Of a DNA stretch of 64,000 nucleotides, positions 1,305-30,867 are shown piece by piece. Source of the DNA: an uncultured archaeon (GTDB lineage: Archaea > Asgardarchaeota > Heimdallarchaeia > Heimdallarchaeales > Kariarchaeaceae); assembly GCA_964645535.1 (NCBI GenBank), contig CAZYCQ010000001.1, positions 99,017 to 163,016 of the forward strand. The letters are read 5' to 3'. The first letter of the stretch is position 1; every line of letters starts with the position of its first letter. The notes beneath the pieces are model-generated. The model was not told the DNA's origin. It did not search any database and saw only the letters and a program-made list of their open reading frames with translations. The position numbers and the translations under genes were made by a program.

Positions 1305-1353
1305 GAGATAAATTATACATTATGAATTTAATAGTTTACACAATGAAAGAAGA

Positions 1354-1701
1354 TTAAAGTTCACTGCTTTCTGTGGGAGAAGGTAAATTCAAGGAGACAA
1401 CAAAAGTCATCAATATTTTCAATTCGTCTGTGGTAATTTTATCATCCAAATTTGCTACATCAAAGGCTTCTTTCAGGATTTTTGCCTTCAGTTTTTTCAA
1501 CGAATCCACTTCTTCAGGAGTGATGATCCCATCTTCCAAAGCTTCCTTAAGATGCTCGGTGAATTCTCGCATTGAAATCTCGATGTTTTTGAGAACTGTT
1601 CGTTCATCTTCTGTGATAATTCCATCTTCTGCTGCAACCTCTACTAGCTTTTTCATTTGTATAGCAAATTGCTCATCTGGTGTGGAATCCGATGAAGCCA
1701 T
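1354..1701 (-). CDS. Small acidic helical protein, TerB-like / EF-hand-like repeats
   Basis: Three copies of an A-x-x-D-[GD]-x-I-T-x-[DE]-E motif (AAEDGIITEDE, ALEDGIITPEE, ANLDDKITTDE) about 30 aa apart. Confidence 0.7.
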   Translation of the reverse strand: MASSDSTPDEQFAIQMKKLVEVAAEDGIITEDERTVLKNIEISMREFTEHLKEALEDGIITPEEVDSLKKLKAKILKEAFDVANLDDKITTDELKILMTFVVSLNLPSPTESSEL

Positions 1702-1748
1702 ACTAATAATATATCAATCAAGGTAATAAGCATCTAGGTTTAACATGA

Positions 1749-2711
1749 TCAACAATTTTCGGCAACATATGCTGCACCAAAATACCTTCGTTCATCCATC
1801 AGAAGATCGATTTTCAAGGATTTAAAGCCTGCTTTTTGGAATATGATCAACCATTTTTCAGGGCTTAGCCAGCCAGGATGGGGGCGATAATCAAACGTCG
1901 GAACATTCCACCATCCCTCAAAGAAGGCAAACATTATTTCTAAAGGCCAAGGGGCATCCGCGGAGTACGGAGATCCTTCCCCTATGACCAAAGTCCCTGT
2001 TTCCTTCAGATGGGACTTGATCCAACGCAAGGCTGCAACTATGTCGTTTGCCACGTGAATTGCATTTGTTGCGTAAATCACATCAAATTTTTGATCAATA
2101 TCGGGAAGGTTATGGAGATCTAGTATTTGAGTATGTAAAGGAAGATCTTTTGGAAGTTTTTTCTTGATTCCCTCAAGAAAATATGGCTTGATATCTGAAA
2201 AACAAAATGTCTTTGCGCGTTTAAGATCTTCGGCCAACAACAGGGCAGTTCCTCCAACACCGCCACCGATTTCTAAGACATCTGCATCTTCGATTAACGG
2301 ATGGACATATCCTGCCACCAATTCATTGAAAAAATTTTGGGTTCCATTGTTTCTATTCCAGTCTTCCCAGAGCTGGACACCACCAGCTTTGATCACCTGA
2401 CTTCCAGTAACCTTGCCCGATAGGAAATCCTCAAGATACTTATCTATAAGTTTGAGGTATTCTAGTGTGGGCCTAATTTCTTCCAAGTCAAATTTGGGCT
2501 CAGGCTGTTCTCCTCCATTAAGATGGGAAAGTATCCGTTGAGAAGTTCGGACAAGATAATTTGCTTCTGCCGAAGGAGCATCATGCCGGGAAACCCAATC
2601 CATCACTCTCGTGGCAAGTCGGAAGCAGATGGGCTCCAGATAGTCATAGTATAGAGAGAGTTTCCTGACACTTGTTTTGCAATCTATTAAGTGAATATAC
2701 AGTACCTCCAT
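1749..2711 (-). CDS. Class I SAM-dependent methyltransferase resembling PKS/NRPS C-methyltransferase domains (start may be ATG 2603)
   Basis: VLEIGGGVGG motif I, FSDIK, FDVIYATNAIH, LKETGTLVIGE, FEGWW, LSPEKW...AGF. Confidence 0.8.
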   Translation of the reverse strand: MEVLYIHLIDCKTSVRKLSLYYDYLEPICFRLATRVMDWVSRHDAPSAEANYLVRTSQRILSHLNGGEQPEPKFDLEEIRPTLEYLKLIDKYLEDFLSGKVTGSQVIKAGGVQLWEDWNRNNGTQNFFNELVAGYVHPLIEDADVLEIGGGVGGTALLLAEDLKRAKTFCFSDIKPYFLEGIKKKLPKDLPLHTQILDLHNLPDIDQKFDVIYATNAIHVANDIVAALRWIKSHLKETGTLVIGEGSPYSADAPWPLEIMFAFFEGWWNVPTFDYRPHPGWLSPEKWLIIFQKAGFKSLKIDLLMDERRYFGAAYVAENC

Positions 2712-2759
2712 ATTTCAAAAGGAAATTAGGTTTTTCAATCTTGAGAATTGGGTAGAAAA

Positions 2760-5465: not shown

Positions 5466-5600
5466 ATAATTGATATTCTTGTTATAATGTTTGGGAATGA
5501 CACACTAGATTTTCCACACCTTTATATCTGAAACTCGATCAATCAAAGGAAAGACACCTAAAAGAGAATATTAATTATTGTTGAATTCCGTTCAAAGGTA

Positions 5601-6020
5601 TTGATGACCATAATTGAACATCAAGAAATCTGGAATTCCCAACTCTTGATGAAAATCATCATCGGATTGATTTCGTTGTTTCTGTATTTGGTGAGCTTTT
5701 TTGTGTTTGAGGTAATAAGGATTGGAAAGGGTATGTTTGATGCAAAAATCGTAGTTGATTTTCTTGGGATTCTCATAGCGACTTTTGCGGCCTTTGCCAT
5801 GATGCGGGTGGACAATCTTTCAAGATTACCACTTGGTTTACTTGTTTTGATCATGGCAATGGTAATTACAGGTACTGCGGATCTGGTTTTAAATACAGTT
5901 GACCCGAATCGAGAAGGAGTAAGACCTTGGATTGAATCGTATAGAATTGCAATTGTGCTTTTTGTGATCCTTGTTGGCAGCCTTATTGGAAAAAGAACAG
6001 CAAAAACGCAACAGAATTAA
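5601..6020 (+). CDS. Hypothetical membrane protein, about 4 TM
   Basis: Four hydrophobic segments; fills the gap between genes. Confidence 0.6.
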   Translation: MMTIIEHQEIWNSQLLMKIIIGLISLFLYLVSFFVFEVIRIGKGMFDAKIVVDFLGILIATFAAFAMMRVDNLSRLPLGLLVLIMAMVITGTADLVLNTVDPNREGVRPWIESYRIAIVLFVILVGSLIGKRTAKTQQN

Positions 6021-6334
6021 TATTCCATGTCTTCCAATTCCAACATTAATTCCCCTACCTTCATCAAGAGCATGTGCTCCTCATTGCTTAAATGATTGTC
6101 TTCCAAGGCAGTTGCATAGGCATTTTCCCATATTCTTTCTCTTGTCAAGAATAGAAAATGCTTGTCACCCTCATCAAAAGATCCTTCTTCATTGATTTTG
6201 GTAAGGAGAATAAAATATCTTTCAAGCCCTTCCATTACACTTTGGATGACATTCATTTCCTCTTCAGTCAGCTCATTGTCCTGCAAGGCTGTTTCTTTCA
6301 ACTCATTCCAAGCTCGCTGGAGGATGTGCTCCAC
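6017..6334 (-). CDS. Small acidic TerB-like / EF-hand-like repeat protein
   Basis: ALQDNELTEEE, INEEGSFDEGD, ALEDNHLSNEE, spaced as in the 1354..1701 protein. Confidence 0.65.
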   Translation of the reverse strand: MEHILQRAWNELKETALQDNELTEEEMNVIQSVMEGLERYFILLTKINEEGSFDEGDKHFLFLTRERIWENAYATALEDNHLSNEEHMLLMKVGELMLELEDMEY

Positions 6335-6486
6335 AACATATACCGGTCAAATCTCAATTATAACCTTTCATAATTTTGAGATTGGTTGTTTTTTTGTTGC
6401 GCAAATTTCTTCTGAATGGGTATTCTGTTTTTTTCGCTAAATAAATTGTGTGCAAGGAAAACTTAGCCCAAGGATTATTTTTTTGA

Positions 6487-7701
6487 ATGGCAACAGGATT
6501 AGAGTTTATGTCACTACGAAAGGAAGCTGAAGAAATCAAACCGAAGCTTGTGGAAATTAGAAGGCAAATTCATATGTACCCGGAACCAGGATTCGAAGAA
6601 CACAAAACCTCAAAGTTCATTCAAGAAAAACTAAGGGAATTGGGGCTGGAACCAAAAGTTTGGGCAAAAACAGGAATTACTGCGGTGATAGAAGGAGGCC
6701 AAGGTAAAGGTAAAACAGTCCTGCTCCGTGCGGATATCGATGCCCTTCCAGTTCAAGAAGCAAATGATGTGCCATACAAATCAAGAAATGAAGGATTTTC
6801 ACATGCATGCGGACATGATGCACATGTTGCATGCCTGTTGGGGGCTGCGGAACTGTTGCTCAAACATAAGGATGAATTCAGGGGAAAAGTCCTTTTGGTG
6901 TTCCAACCAGCTGAAGAAGGGCCAGGCGGTGCAAAACCAATGATTGAGGAAGGAGCAATTGGATCCCCTGAAAATCCAGATATCGACGCAGCAATGGCCC
7001 TTCATATCACAGCCATGGCAGATGTCGGTTTGATAGGGGTGACAGATGGATTACTTACTGCATCAGCAGATGAATTCTATGTGACCATCAAGGGAAAAGG
7101 AGGACATGGAAGCGCACCACATATGGCTATTGACCCCATTTACATTGCAGGGCAAATTATTACAGGAATTCAGGGGTTCATTACAAGAACAGTTGATCCA
7201 GTAGAGCACGTGGTGTTTACATGGGGGAAGGTTATCGGTGGAGAACGGCAGAATGTGATCAGTGAGACCTGCCGACTTGAAGGAACTTTGAGAACACATA
7301 ACAGAGAAGTCAGAAGTAAGCTTAAAGAGGAATTACCAAAATTCATTCAGTCGGTTGCAAAAACCTATGGAGGGAATGCGGAAGTTGAAGTGATTACAGG
7401 ATATGATGTGGGAATCAATGACAAGAAACTCAATGATTCCATTAGGAGGGCGGTAAAGAAACATTATTCAGAGGATGTGATCATTGATCGGGGGCCAATA
7501 ATGGGCGCTGAAGACTTCTTCGAATTTGCCCTAGGAGGAAAAATACCGACATCAATGTTTTGGCTGTTCGCAGGGAATAAGGAAAAAGGATTTACACATG
7601 GAAACCACAGCAACTATTTCGATTTTGATGAAGATGCCTTGCCTATTGGAACTACCATTCTTGCTCAAGCGGCCATTGATTATCTGAATAATGAAGAATG
7701 A
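6487..7701 (+). CDS. M20D amidohydrolase / carboxypeptidase (start probably ATG 6508)
   Basis: RRQIHMYPEPGFEE, LRADIDALP, HACGHDAH, FQPAEEG, GKGGHGSAPH, MGAEDF. Confidence 0.93.
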   Translation: MATGLEFMSLRKEAEEIKPKLVEIRRQIHMYPEPGFEEHKTSKFIQEKLRELGLEPKVWAKTGITAVIEGGQGKGKTVLLRADIDALPVQEANDVPYKSRNEGFSHACGHDAHVACLLGAAELLLKHKDEFRGKVLLVFQPAEEGPGGAKPMIEEGAIGSPENPDIDAAMALHITAMADVGLIGVTDGLLTASADEFYVTIKGKGGHGSAPHMAIDPIYIAGQIITGIQGFITRTVDPVEHVVFTWGKVIGGERQNVISETCRLEGTLRTHNREVRSKLKEELPKFIQSVAKTYGGNAEVEVITGYDVGINDKKLNDSIRRAVKKHYSEDVIIDRGPIMGAEDFFEFALGGKIPTSMFWLFAGNKEKGFTHGNHSNYFDFDEDALPIGTTILAQAAIDYLNNEE

Positions 7702-7746
7702 GCTAAGTGAAACTTTATCACATCTCAGTTCATTTTTAGAACAAGG

Positions 7747-8217
7747 ATGGTTGAGCTCGACAAAATTAAGTTTGTAACCATTAAATACGTAACTGAAGAA
7801 CAGGAGCTAGTTTACGAAGCAGTTAGGAGAGTGCTACCAGAACAGGTGGCAAAGTCCATAAGCCTAAAGAATTTTTCGAAGATGAGCGTTATTGGGCAGT
7901 ACGGAGATCCCATGCTTCTTATTGAGCTCGTCATCAATAAAAAGCCGAAAGAAGTCATAAAACATATCTTTTCCAAACTCACCGAGACTGAAAAAAAACG
8001 TCTCTTACACGAATTCAACACGAGATTCGATCCTGAAACAACAACCTTCTTCTTTAGGTTAGATAAATTCTCTCCACTCAAAGATGATCTTTATCTCAAT
8101 GATGGATCTGATGTGATAAAAGTTGAGCTCAAGTTTAAGGTGTATGGAAAATTGGATCCTGAAAAGATAAAAGAAATACTCCAGTCGCTAATGGGTTTAG
8201 AGGAAGATGGAATATGA
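7747..8217 (+). CDS. Archaeal RNA-binding protein of the exosome superoperon (COG1325/DUF54-like)
   Basis: TEE..LV..A, GQYGDPM, FFFRLDK, DGSDVIKV; lies directly upstream of Rpp30 and Pop5. Confidence 0.8.
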   Translation: MVELDKIKFVTIKYVTEEQELVYEAVRRVLPEQVAKSISLKNFSKMSVIGQYGDPMLLIELVINKKPKEVIKHIFSKLTETEKKRLLHEFNTRFDPETTTFFFRLDKFSPLKDDLYLNDGSDVIKVELKFKVYGKLDPEKIKEILQSLMGLEEDGI

Positions 8218-8861
8218 GAGGGATTGAATGGAGCCCATTTGTATGGAAAAATCAACTCCATATAGCAGAAAAACTTGGGATAACAGCCTGTGCAATAGAA
8301 GGAGACTTGCCAAAGAGAACCATACTTCATTGTTTTAGAAGGAAAACACTTTCAGAAATCAATGGAAAAGTTCAGAAAAAAAATCTGAAAAAAACGGTTG
8401 CTGGTCTCAGGTCGGATTTTGATTGGGTTTCCATTGAGCCCTCTTCAATTAAAGTTCTGGTCGATGCAATTGCCTTTCCTCAGGTTGATGCAATCATGTT
8501 AACTGCATCGTCACCATTGAAATTGGCTCACCAAAAATACCTTGCTCTCCTTCGTGATCATTCAAAAATTCTTGAAATTGATTTGAATCCGTTTTTCTCA
8601 TACAGGTCAAAGCAGAAAGAAATCACAAAGTTGCTCAAAATACTGAACCTAGTCCGTCAAAAACCGCCACAAGTAGTTTTTACGATCTCAGATTCAAATC
8701 CTTTTTCATTTCGCAGATACAGAAATCTCCAATCGTTGGGAAATTCCCTAGGGATTGATATCAATTATTCATCACTTCGTCCGTTTATTGAAAACATTAA
8801 ACGGAACAGGAAACGGAGAGAAGGAAAACTAATCTCAGGAGACATTGAGGTAGATAATTAA
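8214..8861 (+). CDS. rnp3: Ribonuclease P protein component 3 (Rpp30), divergent
   Basis: Position between COG1325 and Pop5; QVDAIM, ILEIDL.P and SDSNPFSFR resemble the Rpp30 TIM-barrel motifs. Confidence 0.7.
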   Translation: MRGIEWSPFVWKNQLHIAEKLGITACAIEGDLPKRTILHCFRRKTLSEINGKVQKKNLKKTVAGLRSDFDWVSIEPSSIKVLVDAIAFPQVDAIMLTASSPLKLAHQKYLALLRDHSKILEIDLNPFFSYRSKQKEITKLLKILNLVRQKPPQVVFTISDSNPFSFRRYRNLQSLGNSLGIDINYSSLRPFIENIKRNRKRREGKLISGDIEVDN

Positions 8862-9193
8862 TGACTGTGAAAATTGATAAACGGAGATACCTCTTGGTGA
8901 GATTTCTAGGTAAAAAGCCAAAGAGAGAAGAGTTTGACAAGGAAATAAGAAAAATTGTACGGTATTTCTACGGTGAACTTACACTGATTTGGAGCAACTT
9001 ACACATTGTGGATGAATGGAATGACTTCTTCATCATTCGAACCAATCACAGGTATGTTGATCAAATAGAAGCCGCAATAACCATTATGTGGTCTGAAGAT
9101 TTTATTGCAGATATAATTTGTAAATCGGGAACTATAAAAGGACTCAAACGTAGATTCAAAAATTTATTTGAGACGGCGTCCGTGAGCTCGTAG
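8861..9193 (+). CDS. rnp2: Ribonuclease P protein component 2 (Pop5)
   Basis: KRRYLLV, FYGE, IIRTNH, SGTIKGLK. Confidence 0.88.
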   Translation: MTVKIDKRRYLLVRFLGKKPKREEFDKEIRKIVRYFYGELTLIWSNLHIVDEWNDFFIIRTNHRYVDQIEAAITIMWSEDFIADIICKSGTIKGLKRRFKNLFETASVSS

Positions 9194-9751
9194 ACTTGGT
9201 CTTGCTTTTTCAACACCACGACCTTTGCGGAACAGACCCCTTGATTTCTTCCCGGCAGCAGTAAGGCCTCGGTAAGTACGACCCTTGTGAACCTTCCGGT
9301 TGATCCAAGCAATTCTTTTGTCATTGACAATTGCAGGATGAACTGGATCCACCATGATAATTTCGAACCATTTGGATCGACCATCTTGGCCTACCCAATA
9401 GGAGCCCAAAACTTCAAGATTAGGATATTTTCTTTGAGTTCTTGTTTCTGCGATCCATCTAAGGTTCCTTCCACTTGTTTTGTCAATTGCAAGGTTTACA
9501 CCTCTGCTTCTCCCTCTATTTGGACGGGACATCCGTCGGGAACCCCTTCTCACCTTCGTCCTTACCACAACATACCCCGGTTTAGCCTTATAACCCAAGG
9601 CACGAGCACGATCAATTCTTAATGGACGTTCAACGCGTACAATCGTGTTTTGTCGTCTCCATTCAATCAGGCGTGGTTTTTGGATTGCCTTGAATTCTGG
9701 TGTATTTCTTTTTCTCCAAAACATTCTGACATTTTTGTACAGATTAGTCAT
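9164..9751 (-). CDS. rpl15e: 50S ribosomal protein L15e (eL15)
   Basis: RVERPLRIDRARALGYKAKPG, YPNLEVLGSYWVGQDG, RGLTAAGKKSRGL; ATG at 9751. Confidence 0.97.
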   Translation of the reverse strand: MTNLYKNVRMFWRKRNTPEFKAIQKPRLIEWRRQNTIVRVERPLRIDRARALGYKAKPGYVVVRTKVRRGSRRMSRPNRGRSRGVNLAIDKTSGRNLRWIAETRTQRKYPNLEVLGSYWVGQDGRSKWFEIIMVDPVHPAIVNDKRIAWINRKVHKGRTYRGLTAAGKKSRGLFRKGRGVEKARPSLRAHGRRLK

Positions 9752-20910: not shown

Positions 20911-21522
20911 TTGGTTGGTACAAGTAATATTTTGGTGACCACACAATCCCGCAGAGAAGACATCCTGCGATTGATTAACAAATTCTTTCAAGATTTTGAT
21001 CTCTTGTTCAATTCAATAGACAAATTGAATGATCCTGATAAAATCATTGAAATGATTCAAGAAGCAAAAGACGACAAGATTGCTGTTCAGCTAGTTTTTC
21101 GGTTAGCCTATTTGGACGAAAAGAAAATTGCCAAATTACTAAGGGAAAGTAAGGACGAGATCATTAAACAGTTTGGAATTTTCATCCTGAAAGATGAAGA
21201 AACCTTAGGTGAAATCGCGAGAAATGAAAAATCGATATGGACGGCATTAAGTGCAGTAGCTAAAATTACAGATCAGAGCATTCTTTTTGAGCTTGCATCC
21301 AATCCAACTTTGTTTTCATCTGTTAGATGGGAAGCACTTAGGAGAATCAATGATGAGGAGTTATTGATTAAACTGGCAGAAATAGACGTTGATGAGCATT
21401 GGGTAAAGGCAGTAATATCTAAAATTGAGAGTGAAGAAAATCTCCTTATCCTTAGATTGACCTTGAAGGACAAGTTTCAACCTTATATTTCCAATCGTCT
21501 GCAATCACTCTCTGCTATTTAA
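20911..21522 (+). CDS. Helical repeat protein (HEAT/LRV-like, ~24-aa repeats)
   Basis: Repeating unit I.D.E.L..IA (LKDEETLGEIA, ITDQSILFELA, INDEELLIKLA, IESEENLLIL). Confidence 0.65.
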   Translation: MVGTSNILVTTQSRREDILRLINKFFQDFDLLFNSIDKLNDPDKIIEMIQEAKDDKIAVQLVFRLAYLDEKKIAKLLRESKDEIIKQFGIFILKDEETLGEIARNEKSIWTALSAVAKITDQSILFELASNPTLFSSVRWEALRRINDEELLIKLAEIDVDEHWVKAVISKIESEENLLILRLTLKDKFQPYISNRLQSLSAI

Positions 21523-23032
21523 TGCTTGGAATGTTTTCCCCTTTTGTAAATTGAGATGATTTCAGAAGGGAATCGAGGATTCGTTCAATTGAGGCGTAAT
21601 TTACTTTTATCTTATCTGGATTACGAGGACCAGCCCAAATTAAATTGTATTTTTTCAGGGTTTTGAGCATCTTTCTGATGGATTTCCTGTTAACTCCGAT
21701 CTCTTTAGAAATAAGGGAGATGTTCCAATCAATGTCATCATATGAAAGTAGGTATTCCAAGAAAGTAATGGCATGCTTTGATCTTAGTTCCAATTCAGCG
21801 CCCTTCAGGTTTTCGTCAAAGTCAGAAATAAATTCTGAGGCGATGTAAACATTGTATCTTCCAATTTTACGTTTTTCAATCCATCCATAATCTTCTAGAA
21901 TTTCCAAGTGCCACAGGAGGTTCCCCATTCCGACATCAACTGCCTTTTTGATCTCACGTAGATGAGCACCTGACGAACCCATGAATTCCAAATACTCCAG
22001 AATGGCACGCCTAACGGGGTTCATCAACAATTGACCCTCAGTCAATTGACGGTTTTCAGGTTGATAGATGGAGGCGATAACAAATACTGTTAATACCCAG
22101 ATTCTTTCGATAAGCCATTTGAAAAATGAAATTATTTGCCTGAAAAATAACCCGATCAGTCCTAAAACAATGAGAAGTGAAATGAGTGGGGAAGGGACAT
22201 TTAATTGGGGCAACTCACTGGGAAGTGGATTCACATTAGAATCGCTAATGCTCGAATTAGTCGTTGTATGAACTGGATTAGTGATTAAACTCGTTCCCAA
22301 AATACTCTGGAACTGATTCAAACGAAGAGTAAGCAATTCCTTTATCTTCGCTTTAAGAAGGTCAGATAAACCAGCCAAAAAAAATCCTTGCCGGTGGGCA
22401 GTATTCTGTTCATCTCCACTTTGATAATCAAATGCAAAGGTAAGAGAATAGTAAGTTGAAGAATTTCTTTCTAGAATGATGGGTTCATTCCCGGTTATTT
22501 CGGTTTGAAGAGAGGAATCATTCGTGGAAAGAATTGTACCTAAGATGGATGCATCCAAGGTTGGTTCAATCAAAGCCATTTCTCCCTTATATGAAACCTG
22601 GGTTCCATTAAAGTCAATTTGCCAACCTGTTTCTTCATCTCCAACCTCTTTAAGGTAATTTTCAACACCCAAAAAGCGTCTGAGATCACCTGAAAACTGG
22701 TCAGTTTCAGATGTTATGGTTATGAGGGCTTTGAACGAGGTACTTGTAATATAATTGTCCAAAGAATCTCGGATCGCTCCATCAATTTCACCATTGCTAT
22801 CTGCAATGATGATTAATTCATAATTAGCAAAAGAACCAGGAGTTTCATTCTCGGTTTCCAATAGATCAATATTGACATTCAGATCTTGAAAAAAGCTTGA
22901 AAATACATTTCCTTCTTCAGGCTCGGAATAAATCACCAGAATGTCAATCGAGGATTGTTGAGCCGTTATTGGAATTAGAAACAACCAATTCAAGGCCAGA
23001 ACCATCATTAATATTGTACCGAGGTATCTCAA
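21515..23032 (-). CDS. Membrane-tethered transcription regulator: signal peptide, extracellular alpha/beta domain, TM, C-terminal tandem wHTH
   Basis: N-terminal signal; S/T/P linker; TM LISLLIVLGLIGLFF; NPVRRAILEYL...GAHLREIKKAVDVGMGNLLWHLEILEDYGWI; second HTH ISLISKEIGVNRKSIRKMLKTL. Confidence 0.85.
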   Translation of the reverse strand: MRYLGTILMMVLALNWLFLIPITAQQSSIDILVIYSEPEEGNVFSSFFQDLNVNIDLLETENETPGSFANYELIIIADSNGEIDGAIRDSLDNYITSTSFKALITITSETDQFSGDLRRFLGVENYLKEVGDEETGWQIDFNGTQVSYKGEMALIEPTLDASILGTILSTNDSSLQTEITGNEPIILERNSSTYYSLTFAFDYQSGDEQNTAHRQGFFLAGLSDLLKAKIKELLTLRLNQFQSILGTSLITNPVHTTTNSSISDSNVNPLPSELPQLNVPSPLISLLIVLGLIGLFFRQIISFFKWLIERIWVLTVFVIASIYQPENRQLTEGQLLMNPVRRAILEYLEFMGSSGAHLREIKKAVDVGMGNLLWHLEILEDYGWIEKRKIGRYNVYIASEFISDFDENLKGAELELRSKHAITFLEYLLSYDDIDWNISLISKEIGVNRKSIRKMLKTLKKYNLIWAGPRNPDKIKVNYASIERILDSLLKSSQFTKGENIPSIK

Positions 23033-23272
23033 TCGCTTTCAAAATTTAATATCTTTGCAATTTAATAAAAAGATTGGAACAGAGTTGCCCATCTTCAGAA
23101 TGGATAGTTGATCTGAAGGGAGGAAAGAGGTAAATGCAGAATTAATGGCAAATGCCTTTTACGTAGGAATTTCAGGAAAAACAGCCATTTTTCACACAAA
23201 TCGGTAAAAAACAAATCCATTTTCTCACTACAGAGACAAAGGTATTTATTTATCTGAGTTACATCCACTTTA

Positions 23273-26200
23273 ATGATCGCCAGATCACTAACACGGAGTA
23301 GTGCAAAACAAAGATTGGCGGTAGTCATTTTCCTTTTTGGGATCCTTGTTTTTTCAGGGTTCCTGCCGGCAACCGCGCATACAGAAAGGAACAACAGATC
23401 ATTTTCTGAAACAGTATCTTCTGTTGATCCTAATAACAGGCAAACAGTGGAACAGACCACATATTCAGCCAATTCAGGAAGAAATCTACCATTCCTTGAA
23501 CAAGATCGAAGGTACGATCTTCTTCGGAAAGAACTCAAGAATAAAGGATTGGAACTCAATTCAAAGGTAGTTTCTCCTTTTCTTTTGAATTTGCAAGGCA
23601 AAGATTTCCAAGCCAATCCTGATGGAACCTTGGATCTCATAATTTCAACAACAGGAGAAAAACCGATGACCGATATGCATTCTTTGGCGAATATGTTTGG
23701 CTTTGAAATGCTGAGAACAATTCCCCAGTTGGATGCATACGTCTTTCGAGGAAGAATTGCAGATTTCAATGCATTTCTGCTCAAAAACAGTAGATCTCTT
23801 GATGTAAAGTATGTTGCTCCTCGAACCACTTACCAAATCGAAGGGTTCCAATCCAGCAATTCAATTCAATTGGATGGAACACCGAATGATCCTAGATGGA
23901 ATGATCAATACGGACCACAAATCATTCGAGCCGATAAGGCATGGAGCCAGATCAGTAGTCCCCCTACAGACCCAGTCATCATAGGTGTAATCGATACGGG
24001 AATTGATTACAATCATCCGGATTTAGATGGAGTCTATCTTCCCGGAGGATATGATTGGGTCAACGATGATACCGACCCTATGGATGACAATAACCACGGA
24101 ACACATGTTGCTGGAATCATTGCGGCAGAAATCAACAATAGTCTTGGTATTGCTGGAGTTGCCGGATTTGGTTCAAGTTACGTCAAGGTAATGGCTGAAA
24201 AGGTGTTCACTTCATATGGTGGAGGAAGTGATGACGTAATCGCACAAGGCATTGTGCATGCAGTTGACTTTGGTATTGACATTATGAGCAATTCGTGGGG
24301 AGGTGGCCCTTCTGATTTAATTGAAGAAGCCATGGAATATGCTAGAGACAATGGAGTGATTATTATTGCCGCCGCAGGAAACGGTTTTGGACCCGATGCA
24401 GACCTGCATTATCCTGCATCTCTTCCATATGTCATTTCCGTATCCTCTACGGATAGAAATGATCAATTGTCTTTCTTCAGTTCCTATGGCTATACTGTAG
24501 ATGTAGCAGCACCAGGTTCAGATATCCTCTCATCCATAATAGGAGGAGATTATGCTGAATTCTCAGGCACAAGCATGGCGACACCTCATGTATCTGCCAC
24601 TGCTGCATTGATGCTTCTGAAACAACCAGACCTTTCTCCCTTTGAAGTGCGGACTTTATTGCACGACACAAGTGTTGATCTTGGAACACAGGGATTTGAC
24701 ATTAAGTTCGGATATGGAAGGATTGATGCATTCAATGCTACAGTCGCAGCAGAAAGGCCAGATATTGATTTGAGAGCAACAATTTATGTACCCCAGCATC
24801 CAATAGTCACCAATTCCATCATTGACATTACAATTGGTCTGTTCAATTTTGGAACTACAAACCAAGATCTGGACTATACAATCAAGAGAGATGGAAAGGT
24901 GATAGACAGCGGCACCTATACGAATTTCTCTGCCGCAAGTGAAATCATGCTTCAAGAACAATTGTTTGTTGTAGACCCAAAGGATGTAACCCTTGAGGTA
25001 TTTATTACGCCAGTGACTGGTGAAACAAATCTTGAGAACAACAACGCCACCCAAGTCTTGAAATTTGGACAACAGACCTATCAAATGATAGCTGAAGAAT
25101 TCAGTTGGGATGATGCAAGAAATGGTGGGTATGATGCAGGGTTGCAAGGGGATGATACGGCAGTTGAAGTACCCTTACCGTTTTCCTTCGAATTCTATGA
25201 AGGATTTAACTTCGAGACGGTATTTGTCAGTTCTAATGGGTACGTCTCATTCATTGATCCTTTCCCCAGCTATTACTATCCGTCAATGTTTCCTGATGAT
25301 TTCAATCCATTCGTCATTGCACCCTTATGGACTGATCTTGTGATGATGGACTTTTTCGGAAACACAACAGCGGATTCACCGAAGTTGTGGATTAAGGAAA
25401 GAAATGACTCTGTCATCTTTCAATGGACTAATGCACATTTGTTTTTCAACCCTAGCGCAAATCTTACCTTCCAGATGGTGCTGTATACCAATGGCGACAT
25501 TAGGTTCAATTATTTGAATGCGGCAACTGATTTCGCAACCATAGGTGTGAACAAAGGATTAAGATCCAATGATTACACCCAATATTGGTCACCCCAACAG
25601 GGACCTGTTGTCTTGGAGAACATGTCATTACTCTTTACGAGACAAAATGTAAAGGTACAAAACGATGTTGGAGTCATGATGTTGACAATGCCTGAAACTG
25701 GATTGCCAAATGACAATTACACCATTGAATTTGCAGTTGTCAATTTCGGGCTGAATGACGCAACGGGTGTTTCATATGATTTGAAAATAAATGGAACGTC
25801 TGTTCTTTCAAATACAACAGATGTGGAATCAGGGTTTGGTCAAGTGTTCATTTATCACTGGACACCAACTACAGAAGGTCTGTACCAGTTCAACCTATCT
25901 GTAAGTCCATATCTCAACGAAACCAACCTTGGAAACAATGTGTTCGAAGCAGAGATTTCCATTGTATCTTCAAATCTGAATATCCCATTCGATGCAACCA
26001 TGGAATACCTGTTTGATAGCACATTCTTTGGCGGATCCCAAAATGAATGGCCCTTATTGACAATGTATATTGAGCCTTCAGGAAGTGATCCGGTAATTGC
26101 AAGGTTCTGGTTAAGCTACACTGACATGAGAACAGGAGACCTCATGTTCGAGTTTTTCTTCGAATTCAATATCTTGACCTTTGAAATTGTAGATTCCTTT

Positions 26201-27781
26201 GGAGAACGGATTCCCTTCGTTCTTCCTGCATTTGCGGATATTGGATATGAGAACTCCTTTGGAACCATCGTAGCAACAACAACATTCAATTATCAAGGTC
26301 AAACATTAAACGCATTCCGTCTTGAAAATGGATACGGTCAGCAAGTATTTTATGATCAGGTTACCGGGGCAATGCTTTTGGATATAGAACAAGTCTGGAA
26401 TGGAACTGAGCAGGTTACAGCAGAAGTTGAACTATTTTATGCACCGGAGGTCATCTCTCCACCTTCAGTCAATCAATTGGTAAAGATTTTTGCTCCTGAT
26501 GGACCTAGTGGTGGAGAGACGACTGCTTTCATGTATGTCAGAAACACCGGAGCAACAGCAGTCAGCGGAACAACACTTTCTGTCACACTCGACGGATCTG
26601 TCTTTGAAACAACACAGATGGGAGCTCTGGCACCAGGGGAATCACAAGTCATTCAATCAACAGTCCCAGCTCAGGAAGGAGTACATACCATCTCAGCCAA
26701 TATTTCAGTGGCGACAGGTGAAACGGACGTTGAGGATAATTTTGATACAACTACATTCAGAGGAATCGGGATGATTGCAGTATTCCAAGACGATTATCCG
26801 TTTTTCTCATTCATGATGGAGGATGTCATCACTTATGAACTTGGAAAAGGGGTTATGTACTTCACTTCTTCTGATATCGGAAATGTCAACATCTCAGGCT
26901 ATGATCGGGTGGTCATTGCTTCTGCTCAGTCCGCCTCCTTTAGGCTTGCTGTTTCGAACAATGTGGAATGGTTCGAAGCCTATGCAGAACAAGGAGGAAT
27001 CTTGGAAATTCATGCAGGATCTGAGAATGGACGATATCTTCAACTTCCAGGAGGAATAGATGTGATTGGGGATGTTTTTTACAATGAAATCACCATTGAA
27101 GATCCCAATTCAGATGTTTTCAAGACACCTTACCTTGTGACTTCCCAAATGTTGAGCAACTGGTATTGGTCAGCCCTAGGTCATTTAACCAATTTGAACC
27201 CCTTGACAAAAGTCTACGCAACTGAAGGTGAGAGTGGTGAATCAAATCCTGTCCTTGCAGCGCAGGCACAGGGTTCAGGTTATATCATATATACCACTCT
27301 TGGTGTCGAAGCTTGGTGGGCAAGCTACGAATTCCTGAGTAACCTATTGCAGTTTGTTCCAACTGATGTACCTGTAAGTGGAGTTACTCCGGAGATCCAA
27401 GGAAACGAGGAAGTGGTGATGTATAATGACCAATATGAAACATTGATGTACATCCTTGAAAGTCCGTTCCATGACACCTATAAGGTAACTGTGGATGGTG
27501 TCGACACAATTTATGATTGGGACGAACCAATTGCAATCGTAACTGTTGAAACACAGGGATGGACGGTAGGTACTCATACAGTCCGTATCGAAGCAACGGA
27601 TACAATTGGTCAGACAACCGTAATGGAAACCACGGTTGAGGTTCTTCAAGCACCAACAACAACTGTGGAGAGCTCATCCAGCACTTCCGATAATGGACCA
27701 CTTGATCTGTGGATCTTCATTGCAGGTCTTGGAATGTTGGTTGCAATTCCCATTCTAAAAAAGAAAAATAGGAAGATATAA
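23273..27781 (+). CDS. Large membrane-anchored subtilase (S8) with CARDB-like, NIDO-like and GATase/GIFT-like domains
   Basis: Triad VIDTGID, HGTHVAGII, GTSMATPH; CARDB-like GETN..NN motifs; NIDO-like LPFSFEFY..VSSNGYVSF..IAPLWTDL; C-terminal TM plus KKKNRKI. Confidence 0.93.
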   Translation: MIARSLTRSSAKQRLAVVIFLFGILVFSGFLPATAHTERNNRSFSETVSSVDPNNRQTVEQTTYSANSGRNLPFLEQDRRYDLLRKELKNKGLELNSKVVSPFLLNLQGKDFQANPDGTLDLIISTTGEKPMTDMHSLANMFGFEMLRTIPQLDAYVFRGRIADFNAFLLKNSRSLDVKYVAPRTTYQIEGFQSSNSIQLDGTPNDPRWNDQYGPQIIRADKAWSQISSPPTDPVIIGVIDTGIDYNHPDLDGVYLPGGYDWVNDDTDPMDDNNHGTHVAGIIAAEINNSLGIAGVAGFGSSYVKVMAEKVFTSYGGGSDDVIAQGIVHAVDFGIDIMSNSWGGGPSDLIEEAMEYARDNGVIIIAAAGNGFGPDADLHYPASLPYVISVSSTDRNDQLSFFSSYGYTVDVAAPGSDILSSIIGGDYAEFSGTSMATPHVSATAALMLLKQPDLSPFEVRTLLHDTSVDLGTQGFDIKFGYGRIDAFNATVAAERPDIDLRATIYVPQHPIVTNSIIDITIGLFNFGTTNQDLDYTIKRDGKVIDSGTYTNFSAASEIMLQEQLFVVDPKDVTLEVFITPVTGETNLENNNATQVLKFGQQTYQMIAEEFSWDDARNGGYDAGLQGDDTAVEVPLPFSFEFYEGFNFETVFVSSNGYVSFIDPFPSYYYPSMFPDDFNPFVIAPLWTDLVMMDFFGNTTADSPKLWIKERNDSVIFQWTNAHLFFNPSANLTFQMVLYTNGDIRFNYLNAATDFATIGVNKGLRSNDYTQYWSPQQGPVVLENMSLLFTRQNVKVQNDVGVMMLTMPETGLPNDNYTIEFAVVNFGLNDATGVSYDLKINGTSVLSNTTDVESGFGQVFIYHWTPTTEGLYQFNLSVSPYLNETNLGNNVFEAEISIVSSNLNIPFDATMEYLFDSTFFGGSQNEWPLLTMYIEPSGSDPVIARFWLSYTDMRTGDLMFEFFFEFNILTFEIVDSFGERIPFVLPAFADIGYENSFGTIVATTTFNYQGQTLNAFRLENGYGQQVFYDQVTGAMLLDIEQVWNGTEQVTAEVELFYAPEVISPPSVNQLVKIFAPDGPSGGETTAFMYVRNTGATAVSGTTLSVTLDGSVFETTQMGALAPGESQVIQSTVPAQEGVHTISANISVATGETDVEDNFDTTTFRGIGMIAVFQDDYPFFSFMMEDVITYELGKGVMYFTSSDIGNVNISGYDRVVIASAQSASFRLAVSNNVEWFEAYAEQGGILEIHAGSENGRYLQLPGGIDVIGDVFYNEITIEDPNSDVFKTPYLVTSQMLSNWYWSALGHLTNLNPLTKVYATEGESGESNPVLAAQAQGSGYIIYTTLGVEAWWASYEFLSNLLQFVPTDVPVSGVTPEIQGNEEVVMYNDQYETLMYILESPFHDTYKVTVDGVDTIYDWDEPIAIVTVETQGWTVGTHTVRIEATDTIGQTTVMETTVEVLQAPTTTVESSSSTSDNGPLDLWIFIAGLGMLVAIPILKKKNRKI

Positions 27782-28911: not shown

Positions 28912-29406
28912 ATGATGATCGAGCCAATCGAAAAAAATGAGCTCCACAACAAACTTGTGACAACAGGACACACCCTTCTTTCTCTCTTTTGGGGCAAAAA
29001 ACCAAGTCAGGTAAATGTCAAATCATCAAATCCAGAAATCAAGTATTCAGCACTTGAGTATTTGATGATACTCAGATATGCTTCCGATCTTTTCACAGGA
29101 AGAGTTGAAAGAATGTTGAAACGCGAGGATGTGCCTGAAACCCATGATTTCGACATCGATAAATTTTTGGAAACGGAGGATATCGAAGATCAAAGTCTAA
29201 AGGCCAACATTGAAGAATTCATGGATTCTAGAGCAAAGCTGTTGAGACTTCTCAATCCATTGAAGGATGAAGAGTGGGATTCCTACAAAATTAATCATGA
29301 AAAGTTTGGAGAGCTTACACTCCGGCAATTGCTCACTCTTTTGGCGAACTATGAAGAGGAATGGGTAAACAATATCAAAACAATTCTCAAAGAACATGAT
29401 CTATAA
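28912..29406 (+). CDS. DinB-like four-helix protein, degenerate
   Basis: KYSALEYL, F...R..LL.LL..L.DEEW, H.KFGELTLRQLL. Confidence 0.6.
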   Translation: MMIEPIEKNELHNKLVTTGHTLLSLFWGKKPSQVNVKSSNPEIKYSALEYLMILRYASDLFTGRVERMLKREDVPETHDFDIDKFLETEDIEDQSLKANIEEFMDSRAKLLRLLNPLKDEEWDSYKINHEKFGELTLRQLLTLLANYEEEWVNNIKTILKEHDL

Positions 29407-30867
29407 ACCGTAATAATCCTCGTAATAAACGAATTGTGAAGACATTGTCAACAGATCTTCATCCAACCAGTTGGTAAGTTCCAACCATAATGTCCCGTTG
29501 GCCAAATCATTCAGCAAATCTTCAAGGGTGTCGCTTTTGGTCATGATAGAAGGGTCATCTTCCCCGGAATAACGATCAGGAGCTCCAAAAATATGGCTCA
29601 ATTCATGTTGGAAAAGATTGTCTGCCCAAGATGGTTGCAATCGAAAGCCATTTGCGTTTAGGCTCCCTCCAGCATTTGCTGCCATGTTGAATCCACCAAT
29701 TGCGTCACCAATGACCATCCCGTAATTTGACATGGTTTTGTTTGTATTGAACAAAAGAATATCCAAACCCATGTTGTTCAGGGCTCGACCTCTTTGGTGA
29801 GACCATTCCTCTCCAGGAAGATGCAATCTAGAACCAAATTCTTTGATGGTAAAATCAAAAGCGGAGGGTAGGAATGTCGATCCCTGATAGTCCACAGGCA
29901 AAATTATCGATACAAGGAAGCTTACATTGAACCATTTTTCAAATCGAGTGTTTACTTCATCCAGTATCTCTTGATGAGATGGAAAAGTATCGGACCAATG
30001 ATCGTCAGCAATCCCCACCAAAAGAACCTTTCTTTGGTTCAACAATGTGAAATTGAAAGCCATTTCATTGAACGATGCGTTGAAAGAAAGTGAAATATTT
30101 TGAAAACCAATGATGTTGGCAAGATTAAGATGAATTTCAGTTCCAAAAAGTTGGAATTTTGATGGCCCAATTTTTAGTACACCTGAAAAATTGTTTGAGG
30201 CCAATAACTGAAAATCGTAGGCGCCTGTCAAATCAATTTCATTCCAGACAGTAGCATTGGAGAAGCTGGAGGCAGATGTTTCTAAACTCAAATAGTCACC
30301 TTCATTCTGTGTAATTGCGATCTTATCTGAGACAAGGTTCCAATCGGTTCCCTCAAACATGTTTACTTCAGGAATGTTCTGAACGGTTAATGTTTGATTA
30401 ATGCTTATTCCGGCATGAATTGTCTGACCTTCTACCATAAAAGTGGAGTTGACCCTCTGCAACAGATAGTTGCCATCTGATAAGGCAAAGAATAAATCAT
30501 CTTCATATGCCCAAATACCCGGAAGGAACACCACCTGAAAAACGTGGATTCCTGGAGAATATGTTTGATTGACGGTTTGAAGAGCGTGGGAAATACGTTC
30601 GCCTCTTGCCATCTCTATGACAATGTCAACAATAGTGACGTTATATTTAGTTACATTGATCTTAATGTCAAGCCTAAGTTTTTCTCCCCTGAAAAGTTGA
30701 GAACTAGAATTTACCGAAATGATGGACAGTGCTTTCTCAAGAGGGAACAAGTCCTCTTCCGTCTTATTGGACGAATTAAGCAAGAAAATTGATATGCCAA
30801 CTAAAGAGAAAATGATAAGTCCCGATAGGATCACAGTCAAAATCAGTCGTTTTTGCCGATCCATCAT
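29401..30867 (-). CDS. Membrane-anchored zinc metalloprotease (metzincin)
   Basis: N-terminal TM; HELSHIFGAPD (HExxHxxGxxD) followed by a Met-turn (SIMT). Confidence 0.8.
   Translation of the reverse strand: MMDRQKRLILTVILSGLIIFSLVGISIFLLNSSNKTEEDLFPLEKALSIISVNSSSQLFRGEKLRLDIKINVTKYNVTIVDIVIEMARGERISHALQTVNQTYSPGIHVFQVVFLPGIWAYEDDLFFALSDGNYLLQRVNSTFMVEGQTIHAGISINQTLTVQNIPEVNMFEGTDWNLVSDKIAITQNEGDYLSLETSASSFSNATVWNEIDLTGAYDFQLLASNNFSGVLKIGPSKFQLFGTEIHLNLANIIGFQNISLSFNASFNEMAFNFTLLNQRKVLLVGIADDHWSDTFPSHQEILDEVNTRFEKWFNVSFLVSIILPVDYQGSTFLPSAFDFTIKEFGSRLHLPGEEWSHQRGRALNNMGLDILLFNTNKTMSNYGMVIGDAIGGFNMAANAGGSLNANGFRLQPSWADNLFQHELSHIFGAPDRYSGEDDPSIMTKSDTLEDLLNDLANGTLWLELTNWLDEDLLTMSSQFVYYEDYYGL

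What the first reader, a model, noticed from the sequence alone, without database searches (positions are those of the whole stretch)
21515..27781. Membrane-tethered wHTH regulator divergent from a subtilase with a site-1-protease-like architecture
Seen: a regulator with signal peptide, extracellular alpha/beta (GATase/GIFT-like) domain, S/T/P linker, TM and cytoplasmic tandem wHTH shares a 240-bp divergent promoter with a 1502-aa membrane-anchored S8 protease. That protease also has a GATase/GIFT-like domain (about 26770-27360; IAVFQD...YDRVVIAS...YAEQGGIL) before its TM. Established: eukaryotic site-1 protease is an S8 + GIFT-domain + TM protein that cleaves membrane-tethered transcription factors (SREBP, ATF6). 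Inference: a one-component transmembrane sensor that controls the protease and may be cleaved by it, i.e. an Asgard analogue of regulated proteolytic signalling. The simpler reading is a nutrient-scavenging protease with a local activator.
Basis: partly seen in the sequence, partly recalled or inferred. Interest (0 to 1): 0.7.

Follow-up and report, generated by a model that had tools for sequence, protein, structure and literature searches.

The report
Membrane-tethered regulator beside surface subtilase
A Heimdall-group archaeon encodes a single-pass membrane protein with a sensor-like domain outside and two DNA-binding domains inside, sitting next to a big surface protease; comparison with relatives indicates the two are chance neighbours, and the regulator instead appears to control itself and a few surface proteins.

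Summary
The described anatomy is real. The 505-aa protein (21515-23032, minus) has a signal peptide, a class-I-glutamine-amidotransferase (GATase)/ThuA-like ectodomain (AF2 pLDDT 84; Z 15 to GH42/ThuA folds, Z 10.4 to the site-1-protease GIFT subdomain), an S/T/N/P linker, one TM helix and two cytoplasmic winged helices. The 1502-aa subtilase (23273-27781, plus) has an intact triad, CARDB-type domains, a GATase-like domain (weaker evidence) and a C-terminal anchor.

The site-1-protease reading is not supported. The regulator occurs in 9 of 11 other genomes of its family, but the protease ortholog was found in only one of them. One same-genus genome keeps the synteny without the protease. The S8 domain is thermitase-type, and the genome has 41 S8 matches.

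A 16-bp motif, TGGGCA-N3-YTGTTCC, lies 43-68 nt upstream of the regulator gene or its operon in all four genomes of the genus. It also precedes the acidic about-390-aa surface-protein genes and a secreted prenyltransferase-toroid gene. Homologs of both lie in the regulator's operon in other genera. There are 4 exact copies in the genome against 0.19 expected.

Best reading: an autoregulated transmembrane one-component regulator of a small cell-surface regulon, with the protease a lineage-specific neighbour. The scan noted this family before in another genome (e1-5627770).

The parts
21515..23032 (-). Transmembrane transcription regulator gene, 505 aa from TTG 23032 (a 497-aa form starting at the internal Met is on record as P0003)
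22313..22960 (-). Ectodomain aa 25-240, class I GATase/ThuA-like fold, no cysteine, so no amidotransferase triad
   Evidence: AF2 pLDDT 83.8; Foldseek E 3e-7 to GH42 mid-domain; VIA Z 15.0 4oif, 14.8 4jqs, 12.9 IFT52, 10.4 S1P 8uw8; Cys count 0
22190..22312 (-). S/T/N/P-rich linker aa 241-281
22130..22186 (-). Single TM helix aa 283-301, followed by the invariant juxtamembrane stretch S-x-Y-x3-N-R-Q
   Evidence: hydropathy, 7 of 7 homologs; invariant columns
21830..22027 (-). Winged helix 1 (ArsR/HTH_20-like), aa 336-401
   Evidence: PDB 3f6o ArsR family E 7e-5
21602..21814 (-). Winged helix 2 (TrmB/DUF4423/HTH_36-like), aa 407-477
23076..23091 (-). Candidate operator TGGGCAACTCTGTTCC, just upstream of a TATA-like box, 43 nt before the regulator's TTG start and 181 nt before the protease ATG
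23033..23272 (.). 240-bp divergent intergenic region; TATA-like TATTTATTTAT about 20-30 nt before the protease ATG
23273..27781 (+). 1502-aa surface-anchored subtilase
23975..24718 (+). Peptidase S8 domain, thermitase-type, triad D241/H275/S434
25664..25948 (+). CARDB beta-sandwich domain (one of several between the S8 and GATase-like domains)
26765..27382 (+). GATase/ThuA-like domain aa 1165-1370, no cysteine
   Evidence: ThuA E 0.011; low-confidence model matching only GATase-like folds; conserved in L081 and L082 subtilases
27701..27757 (+). C-terminal hydrophobic anchor after an S/T-rich stretch, followed by the KKKNRKI tail
   Evidence: no Heimdall-CTERM hit at E<=1

Best explanation
The 505-aa protein is a type-I single-pass transmembrane one-component transcription regulator. 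A non-catalytic GATase/ThuA-like ectodomain faces the outside. One TM helix links it to two cytoplasmic winged-helix domains that stay at the membrane and bind DNA. Its likely operator is the non-palindromic 16-bp site TGGGCA-N3-YTGTTCC. The two half-sites are one helical turn apart, which suits one tandem-wHTH polypeptide. The site lies immediately upstream of the TATA box. Through it the protein would autoregulate and control a small cell-surface regulon. That regulon comprises acidic about-390-aa C-terminally anchored surface proteins, which may be a co-component partner, and a secreted prenyltransferase-like toroid protein. The neighbouring 1502-aa protein is one of many surface-anchored degradative thermitase-type subtilases of this organism, and it lies beside the regulator only in a sub-lineage. 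Shown here: the domain anatomy, the folds, the phyletic pattern, and the motif's enrichment and placement. Inferred: that this regulator binds the motif, the direction of regulation, and the signal sensed.
For: Anatomy and folds.

Family range: of 83 genomes of the class searched (G000 included), 36 have a match. Without G000, that is 9 of 11 in f1. Only the TM + wHTH part matches in f5 (21 of 22) and f6 (2 of 2).

Gene neighbourhood: homologous 378-386-aa acidic secreted proteins (33-43% identical to each other) lie directly upstream on the same strand in G045, G043 and G049. In G039 the upstream same-strand genes are a transglutaminase-like gene and two prenyltransferase-toroid genes.

Motif enrichment: 4 exact copies in the 3.6-Mb genome, against a mean of 0.19 and a maximum of 2 in 295 composition-matched permuted patterns. 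With up to 1 mismatch there are 20 copies against 6 for the reversed pattern. G047, G048 and G049 have 4, 3 and 3 exact copies against 0, 0 and 0 reversed.

Motif placement: it lies 43-68 nt before the start codon (my count on the printout) of the regulator gene in G000, G047 and G048, and of the 379-aa-plus-regulator operon in G049. It precedes all 5 unlinked acidic-protein paralogs found: 4 exact, 1 with one mismatch. It also lies 36-65 nt before the prenyltransferase-toroid gene in G000 (1 mismatch), G047 and G049. That gene is 43% identical to the gene heading the G039 operon.

Variants: motif variants head the regulator-containing gene clusters in G045 and G039, and a half-site does so in G043.

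Protease as ordinary: 41 S8 matches in the genome; thermitase-like; the same S8 + CARDB + GATase-like layout occurs in g14 subtilases whose regulator homologs are on other contigs.
Against: There is no binding, expression or cleavage data.

Another transcription factor could recognise the motif.

Two exact or near-exact sites do not fit a surface regulon: one lies 173-175 nt upstream of coaBC in two genomes, and one precedes a 39-aa ORF.

In the window genome the acidic-protein genes are unlinked from the regulator, about 24 kb away and on another contig.

The motif does sit in the shared intergenic region, so an effect on the protease promoter 181 nt away is not excluded.

All genomes are incomplete MAGs (63-94% complete among f1), so absences are provisional.

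The model of the protease's C-domain has low confidence.
Confidence: 0.55

Rival explanations
1. Local regulator of the protease: the membrane-tethered regulator binds the single site in the 240-bp divergent region and thereby also switches the adjacent subtilase gene, for example in response to extracellular polymer or peptide supply.
For: The genes are divergent and adjacent in the window and in G047. The motif lies between them. Orthologs of both proteins (P0004, P0008) have the same longest-contig length, 631115, so they probably share a contig in a third genome.
Against: The motif is 181 nt (window) and about 130 nt (L001) from the protease ATG, but 43-60 nt from the regulator start. No second site was found with up to 4 mismatches. 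The motif is kept in G048, which lacks the protease. The protease ortholog was found in only 1 of the 9 other f1 genomes that have the regulator. Near the protease start only a TATA-like box is conserved between the window and L001.
Confidence: 0.2
2. Site-1-protease-like regulated proteolysis: the anchored subtilase sheds the regulator's ectodomain at the S/T/P linker. An intramembrane protease then releases the tandem wHTH. This would be an Asgard analogue of SREBP/ATF6 processing.
For: The protease has S8 + GATase-superfold domain + TM + basic tail, in the same order as S1P. The regulator has an exposed linker and an invariant juxtamembrane stretch. Three M50 (S2P) genes and one rhomboid gene exist in the genome.
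Against: The pairing is not conserved. The S8 domain is thermitase-type. There are no Pfam MBTPS1 or GIFT (ABC_transp_aux) hits at E<=1 and no PDB sequence hit of the C-domain profile to S1P. About 670 residues lie between the S8 and GATase-like domains. S2P and rhomboid ring in 14 of 14 control genomes, so their presence is uninformative, and they are unlinked. A prokaryotic regulator can act from the membrane without release (abstract and passages of PMC10269533).
Confidence: 0.05
3. The 16-bp motif is the site of a different transcription factor, or a lineage-specific promoter element of surface-protein genes. The tethered regulator would then have other, unidentified targets, and it simply belongs to that co-regulated set.
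For: No direct link between protein and site was tested. Sites upstream of coaBC and of a small ORF do not fit a surface regulon.
Against: The site heads the regulator's own transcription unit in four genomes of the genus, and variants head it in two other genera. Two gene families carrying the site are the same families that are operon neighbours of the regulator elsewhere. That is the usual signature of an autoregulated local regulator.
Confidence: 0.2

Closest known systems
Transmembrane transcription regulators (TTRs: ToxR, TcpP, CadC, TfoS; archaeal examples regulating motility and pili), as surveyed in PMC10269533
   Same: One polypeptide combines an extracytoplasmic domain, TM helix or helices and a DNA-binding domain. 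[quoted passage not shown] The class is reported in 367 of 404 archaeal species. Some have an operon-encoded membrane partner ('co-component' systems such as ToxRS and TcpPH). This comes from the abstract and passages read.
   Different: Here the polarity is type I: a signal peptide, then an N-terminal ectodomain and C-terminal cytoplasmic DNA-binding domains. ToxR and CadC have an N-terminal cytoplasmic OmpR-type wHTH (recalled, not checked here). This protein has two tandem ArsR/TrmB-like wHTH domains and a GATase/ThuA-like ectodomain. The words Asgard and Heimdall do not occur in that paper's main text; its supplementary lists were not opened.
Eukaryotic site-1 protease (MBTPS1; PDB 8UW8, PMC11231238)
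   Same: S8 catalytic domain, a later GATase-superfold (GIFT) domain, then a C-terminal TM. VIA Z 9.1 for the protease's C-domain and Z 10.4 for the regulator's ectodomain against 8uw8_A.
   Different: The S8 domain here is thermitase-type. There is no P-like subdomain directly followed by a GIFT domain packed on the catalytic domain; CARDB/NIDO-like beta-sandwich domains intervene. There is no sequence-level match to MBTPS1 families. The Z-scores to S1P tie with, or lie below, those to generic GATase and ThuA proteins. No conserved membrane-tethered substrate partner was found.
Thermitase / AK.1 protease (PDB 1thm, 1dbi) and archaeal/bacterial multidomain surface subtilases
   Same: The S8 domain matches at E 1e-59 and 8e-55 over the whole catalytic domain, with an intact triad.
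   Different: This protein has about 1000 extra residues: CARDB-type domains, a GATase-like domain, an Ig-like domain and a C-terminal anchor.
ThuA-like / GH42 middle (trimerisation) domain / non-catalytic GATase1-like proteins (PDB 4jqs, 1t0b, 3rht, 4oif)
   Same: These are the best structural matches of the regulator ectodomain (Z 14.1-15.0, 177-196 aligned residues, rmsd 3.1-3.3) and of the protease's C-domain (Z 9.5-10.3).
   Different: There is no significant sequence similarity: none at E<=1 for the ectodomain and ThuA E 0.011 for the C-domain. Here the domains are extracellular and fused to a TM regulator or a protease.

Membership tests
Site-1 protease (MBTPS1/S1P) | S8 catalytic domain of the S1P/proprotein-convertase kind | tested here: not met
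   An S8 domain is present, but its nearest solved relatives are AK.1 protease and thermitase (E 1e-59, 8e-55), then subtilisins. S1P is not among the 60 listed of 189 hits with E<=1e-5. The remaining 129 hits were not displayed.
Site-1 protease (MBTPS1/S1P) | P-like subdomain followed directly by a GIFT subdomain that packs on the catalytic domain (PMC11231238 passages) | tested here: not met
   About 670 residues with CARDB and NIDO-like hits lie between S8 (ends aa 482) and the GATase-like domain (starts aa about 1165). Packing could not be modelled.
Site-1 protease (MBTPS1/S1P) | Sequence match to MBTPS1-specific Pfam families | tested here: not met
   The Pfam scan at E<=1 lists only Peptidase_S8, CARDB, NIDO and LacZ_4. 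That Pfam holds MBTPS1-specific models is recalled, not checked.
Site-1 protease (MBTPS1/S1P) | Cleaves a membrane-tethered transcription factor | not testable with these tools
   The comparative proxy, conserved pairing with the regulator, fails.
GIFT domain (IFT52, OST48/Wbp1, GldG, S1P) | Specific structural or sequence affinity to GIFT members above other GATase-superfold proteins | tested here: inconclusive
   Regulator ectodomain: IFT52 Z 12.9 (rank 11), OST48 12.3, S1P 10.4 (rank 47), against ThuA/GH42 14-15. Protease C-domain (low-confidence model): IFT52 9.8 and OST48 9.8 (ranks 4-5), S1P 9.1, against a best of 10.3, all within a tie. No Pfam hit to a GIFT-type family at E<=1 or E<=10.
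Class I glutamine amidotransferase-like superfold | Flavodoxin-like alpha/beta fold matching GATase/ThuA/GH42M structures over the whole domain | tested here: met
   Regulator ectodomain: Z 15.0-13.0 with 177-196 of 216 residues aligned; Foldseek gives 153 matches with E<=0.001. Protease C-domain: all 50 listed entries are of this superfold, but the model pLDDT is 48.
Class I glutamine amidotransferase (enzyme) | Cys-His-Glu catalytic triad | tested here: not met
   Both proteins contain no cysteine at all. Across the ectodomain alignment only G98, W113, G126 and P160 are invariant.
Transmembrane transcription regulators (one-component, membrane-bound) | A predicted TM region plus a DNA-binding domain in one protein (definition in PMC10269533) | tested here: met
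   One conserved TM helix in 7 of 7 homologs; HTH_20 above its Pfam cut-off and further HTH hits.
Transmembrane transcription regulators (one-component, membrane-bound) | Binds DNA and regulates transcription while membrane-bound | not testable with these tools
   Only indirect evidence: a conserved, enriched motif at its own promoter and at the promoters of genes that are its neighbours in other genomes.
Peptidase S8 (subtilase) | Asp-His-Ser triad in D-H-S order, with the oxyanion Asn | tested here: met
   PF00082 E 1.2e-60; D241, H275, N340 and S434 lie in the canonical motifs.

The most novel reading that the evidence does not exclude
In the sub-lineage that carries both genes, the anchored subtilase with its GIFT-like membrane-proximal domain could act as a site-1-type sheddase on the regulator's S/T/P linker. 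An S2P or rhomboid enzyme would then cut next to the invariant juxtamembrane S-x-Y-x3-N-R-Q stretch. That would be a prokaryotic, convergently built counterpart of SREBP/ATF6 processing in the archaeal group closest to eukaryotes.
Probability: 0.05. Interest if true: 0.8.

Novelty: new variant of a known kind. Interest (0 to 1): 0.35.

Why it matters
The link between an Asgard gene pair and eukaryotic site-1-protease signalling does not survive comparative testing. The architecture shared with S1P is best read as convergent domain shuffling in an organism with dozens of subtilases.

What remains is an uncharacterised, Heimdall-restricted family of type-I membrane-tethered tandem-wHTH regulators. 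It now comes with a concrete, testable operator sequence and a predicted regulon of cell-surface proteins. Signal transduction and envelope biology of Asgard archaea are almost unexplored experimentally. A 16-bp site plus a soluble 180-residue DNA-binding fragment is a simple entry point.

Tried and rejected
- Complex prediction (regulator ectodomain with the acidic surface protein) was not available, so no binding test was made.
- The metagenome-contig scan with the regulator alignment gave only three remote wHTH-only hits.
- hhalign of the two GATase-like domain alignments gave probability about 1% and E 0.057. No sequence homology between the two domains was shown. BLASTP of the two whole proteins gave nothing.
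- The profile of the protease's C-domain against PDB sequences gave only two chance-level hits at E 0.7-1.3.
- ESM Atlas feature search for the C-domain returned unnamed Bacteroidota clusters, DUF4960, MJECL34 and DUF2194 at 0.89-0.92, near the chance range. It had no structure search.
- The word-index searches found only 4 relatives each for the regulator and for the protease's C-domain. The exhaustive phmmer search of the ectodomain found 5.
- No inverted repeat was found in the window's intergenic region.
- The literature search for 'Asgard archaea' together with 'site-1 protease' found 0 papers. A mixed-term search was uninformative.
- The NCBIfam Heimdall-CTERM model did not hit the protease's C-terminus at E<=1. 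It hit two of the four acidic proteins scanned, and only below its cut-off.

Full report
**What is there**

They are divergent, with 240 bp between them. The surroundings are archaeal housekeeping and miscellaneous genes: XPD-type helicase, NUDIX, CMD, a DinB-like gene, an M12-like peptidase and AlaRS. Related loci come from Heimdallarchaeota MAGs.

**The regulator**

- Pfam gives HTH_20 at aa 336-383 (27.6 bits, cut-off 27). It also gives a cluster of sub-threshold HTH families (TrmB, DUF4423, HTH_36, HTH_11) at aa 407-477.
- Homologs in another genus score HTH_20 at E 5e-11 in that second position.
- The first wHTH is nearest to an ArsR-family structure (3f6o, E 7e-5).
- Hydropathy shows an N-terminal signal-like segment and one strong TM helix at about aa 283-301 in 7 of 7 homologs. 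A short second hydrophobic stretch is not conserved as a TM helix.
- Positive charges follow the TM helix. The most plausible topology is therefore ectodomain outside and wHTH domains inside.
- The ectodomain (aa 25-240) has no Pfam hit at E<=1. An exhaustive phmmer search found it in only 5 cluster representatives, all about 500 aa long.
- An AF2 model from a 6-sequence alignment reached pLDDT 83.8.
- Foldseek and VIA-align place it firmly in the class I GATase-like superfold:
  - GH42 middle domain 4oif: Z 15.0 (177 aligned residues, rmsd 3.1)
  - ThuA-like 4jqs and 1t0b: Z 14.8 and 14.1
  - GIFT-domain proteins, further down the list: IFT52 Z 12.9, OST48 Z 12.3, S1P 8uw8_A residues 614-874 Z 10.4 at rank 47
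- The protein has no cysteine, so the domain cannot be an amidotransferase.

**The protease**

- Peptidase_S8 matches at aa 235-482 (E 1e-60), and D241/H275/N340/S434 are present.
- The nearest solved relatives are AK.1 protease and thermitase (E 1e-59 and 8e-55). S1P is not among the 60 listed of 189 hits.
- CARDB and NIDO-like beta-sandwich domains follow the S8 domain.
- The AF2 model from 4 sequences was poor (pLDDT 48). Even so, all 50 listed VIA matches are GATase-superfold proteins: 3rht Z 10.3, IFT52 9.8, OST48 9.8, S1P 9.1. Foldseek returns the same set.
- I therefore accept 'GATase-like'. Whether it is GIFT-type or ThuA-type remains a tie.
- A profile comparison of this domain with the regulator's ectodomain is not significant.
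- The same domain, 31-32% identical in the alignment, sits in 1932-aa and 2038-aa S8 + CARDB subtilases of another family of the class. S8 + beta-sandwiches + GATase-like is thus a recurrent Heimdall subtilase design.
- The genome has 41 S8 matches.

**Is the pair conserved?**

It is not. I searched 83 genomes of the class.

| Feature | Result |
|---|---|
| Regulator profile, own family f1 | 9 of 11 other genomes |
| TM + wHTH part only, f5 | 21 of 22 |
| TM + wHTH part only, f6 | 2 of 2 |
| Partial matches, f4 | 3 of 3 |
| Protease C-domain, all 83 | 5 of 83 |
| Protease C-domain, f1 | 2 of 11 other genomes |
| True protease ortholog | only G047, where it is again divergent from the regulator |

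- G048 is in the same genus and 82% complete. It keeps XPD, the 193-aa ORF, the regulator, NUDIX, a DinB-sized ORF and the M12-like peptidase in order. The protease is missing at that spot and was not found elsewhere in that genome.
- G049 (93% complete) also lacks it.
- Orthologs P0004 and P0008 probably share a 631-kb contig in a genome not held here. Their adjacency could not be checked.
- In the two g14 genomes with an S8-GATase-like subtilase, the regulator homolog is on a different contig.
- S2P (three genes) and rhomboid (one gene) exist, but they are unlinked. They also ring in 14 of 14 control genomes, so they carry no information.

**What the regulator is linked to instead**

- In G045, G043 and G049 a homologous 378-386-aa protein lies directly upstream on the same strand. 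It has a signal peptide, a D/E-rich stretch, a conserved about-250-aa domain and a C-terminal anchor. The anchor gives sub-threshold Heimdall-CTERM hits in the two of these proteins that were scanned (G049 and G045).
- In G039 the upstream same-strand genes are a transglutaminase-like protein and two prenyltransferase-toroid proteins.
- The window genome has two unlinked paralogs of the acidic protein.

**The 16-bp motif**

Aligning the intergenic regions of the window and L001 revealed one conserved block. Its core is TGGGCA-N3-YTGTTCC. The same core is present upstream of the regulator in G048, which has no protease.

- The window genome holds 4 exact copies, against a mean of 0.19 (maximum 2) for 295 permuted control patterns.
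- The three sister genomes hold 4, 3 and 3 exact copies, against 0 for the reversed pattern.
- By my count on the printouts, the sites lie 43-68 nt before the start codons of:
  - the regulator gene in G000, G047 and G048;
  - the 379-aa-plus-regulator operon in G049;
  - all five unlinked acidic-protein paralogs found (one with a single mismatch).
- The sites lie 36-65 nt before a secreted prenyltransferase-toroid gene in G000 (one mismatch), G047 and G049. That gene is 43% identical to the one heading the G039 cluster.
- Each site is followed within about 10 nt by a TATA-like box.
- Variants stand at the head of the regulator-containing clusters in G045 (TGGGACAGATGTGTTCC) and G039 (TGGACATAGTTGTTCT). 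A half-site does so in G043.
- Two further conserved sites, upstream of coaBC and of a small ORF, do not fit neatly.
- In the window's intergenic region there is only this one site. It is 43 nt from the regulator start and 181 nt from the protease ATG. No second site was found with up to 4 mismatches.

**Mechanism proposed**

Two independent lines tie the regulator to the same two gene families: operon neighbourhood in other genera, and a shared promoter motif within this genus. The site also heads the regulator's own transcription unit. The simplest model is an autoregulated transmembrane one-component regulator. Its tandem wHTH would read two half-sites one helical turn apart, beside the TATA box. 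Its regulon would be a handful of cell-surface proteins. The acidic anchored protein may be a co-component partner, in the sense described for ToxRS and TcpPH (passages of PMC10269533). All binding steps are inferred, and the co-fold test was not available. The sensed signal is unknown. The ectodomain's nearest folds are non-catalytic ThuA/GH42M-type domains, and that alone shows no function.

**Comparison with known systems**

- Passages of PMC11231238 confirm that S1P is built as S8 + P-like + GIFT (617-998) + TM, and that the GIFT subdomain packs against and stabilises the catalytic domain.
- The window's protease shares the list of modules and their order. It does not share the S8 subtype, the contiguity, or any sequence-level signal, so I do not file it as an S1P relative.
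- The regulator belongs to the known class of transmembrane transcription regulators. It has an unusual polarity and domain set.
- An earlier report of this scan (e1-5627770) described a look-alike protein in another genome in the same terms. My fold and topology results agree with it. The motif and regulon are new here.
- No paper in the held library combines 'Asgard archaea' with 'site-1 protease'.

**Verdict**

The S1P-analogue interpretation is not supported, and I give it about 5%. 'Local activator of the protease' is possible but has no positive evidence (about 20%). The best-supported reading is an autoregulated membrane-tethered regulator of a small surface-protein regulon, with an ordinary surface subtilase next door (about 55%).

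Noticed in passing
window 20911-21522 (+): A 203-aa ORF is convergent with the regulator and overlaps its 3' end by 8 nt. It is conserved at the same place in L001 (195 aa) and L002 (193 aa), and has no Pfam or NCBIfam hit.
   Followed up: partly
G000:C1:95991-96968 (+), about 3 kb before the window's start, and G000:C28:23512-24543 (-): Two paralogs of an acidic about-400-aa secreted, C-terminally anchored protein family. Each is preceded by the TGGGCA-N3-YTGTTCC motif. Orthologs are operon partners of the regulator in three other genomes, and there is a weak NCU-G1 Pfam hit in one.
   Followed up: yes
G000:C22 near 29726-29741 (locus L064): A secreted 487-aa prenyltransferase alpha-alpha-toroid protein with the motif (1 mismatch) 36 nt before its start. 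Orthologs in G047 and G049 carry exact sites.
   Followed up: yes
L043 (G039) 518-9710: A same-strand cluster: a 773-aa prenyltransferase-toroid protein, a 1364-aa fusion of prenyltransferase toroid + 7TM_transglut + sugar-transfer ATP-grasp, a 384-aa transglutaminase-like protein, then the regulator homolog.
   Followed up: partly
L046-L050 (genus g14 of the same class): About-500-aa proteins share only the TM + tandem-wHTH part of the regulator. They sit next to three large conserved proteins (about 480-550, 565-610 and 850-880 aa). In the two loci scanned (L046, L048) these have no Pfam hit at E<=1e-4. This may be a different sensor module on the same output.
   Followed up: partly
G000:C7:9792-9807 and G047:C143:5696-5711: An exact motif copy is conserved 173-175 nt upstream of coaBC (DFP/Flavoprotein) in two genomes. 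It does not fit a surface-protein regulon.
   Followed up: partly
window 29401-30867 (-): A 488-aa ORF with a weak reprolysin/M12-like hit, kept in synteny in L001 and L002. It is a second putative secreted peptidase in the neighbourhood.
   Followed up: no
L042 6196-6813 (+) (G043): A Ras/Roc-family small GTPase gene lies immediately upstream of the acidic-protein-plus-regulator pair, on the same strand.
   Followed up: no
whole genome G000: 41 Peptidase_S8 matches in a 3.6-Mb, 89%-complete MAG. This is a large subtilase expansion.
   Followed up: no
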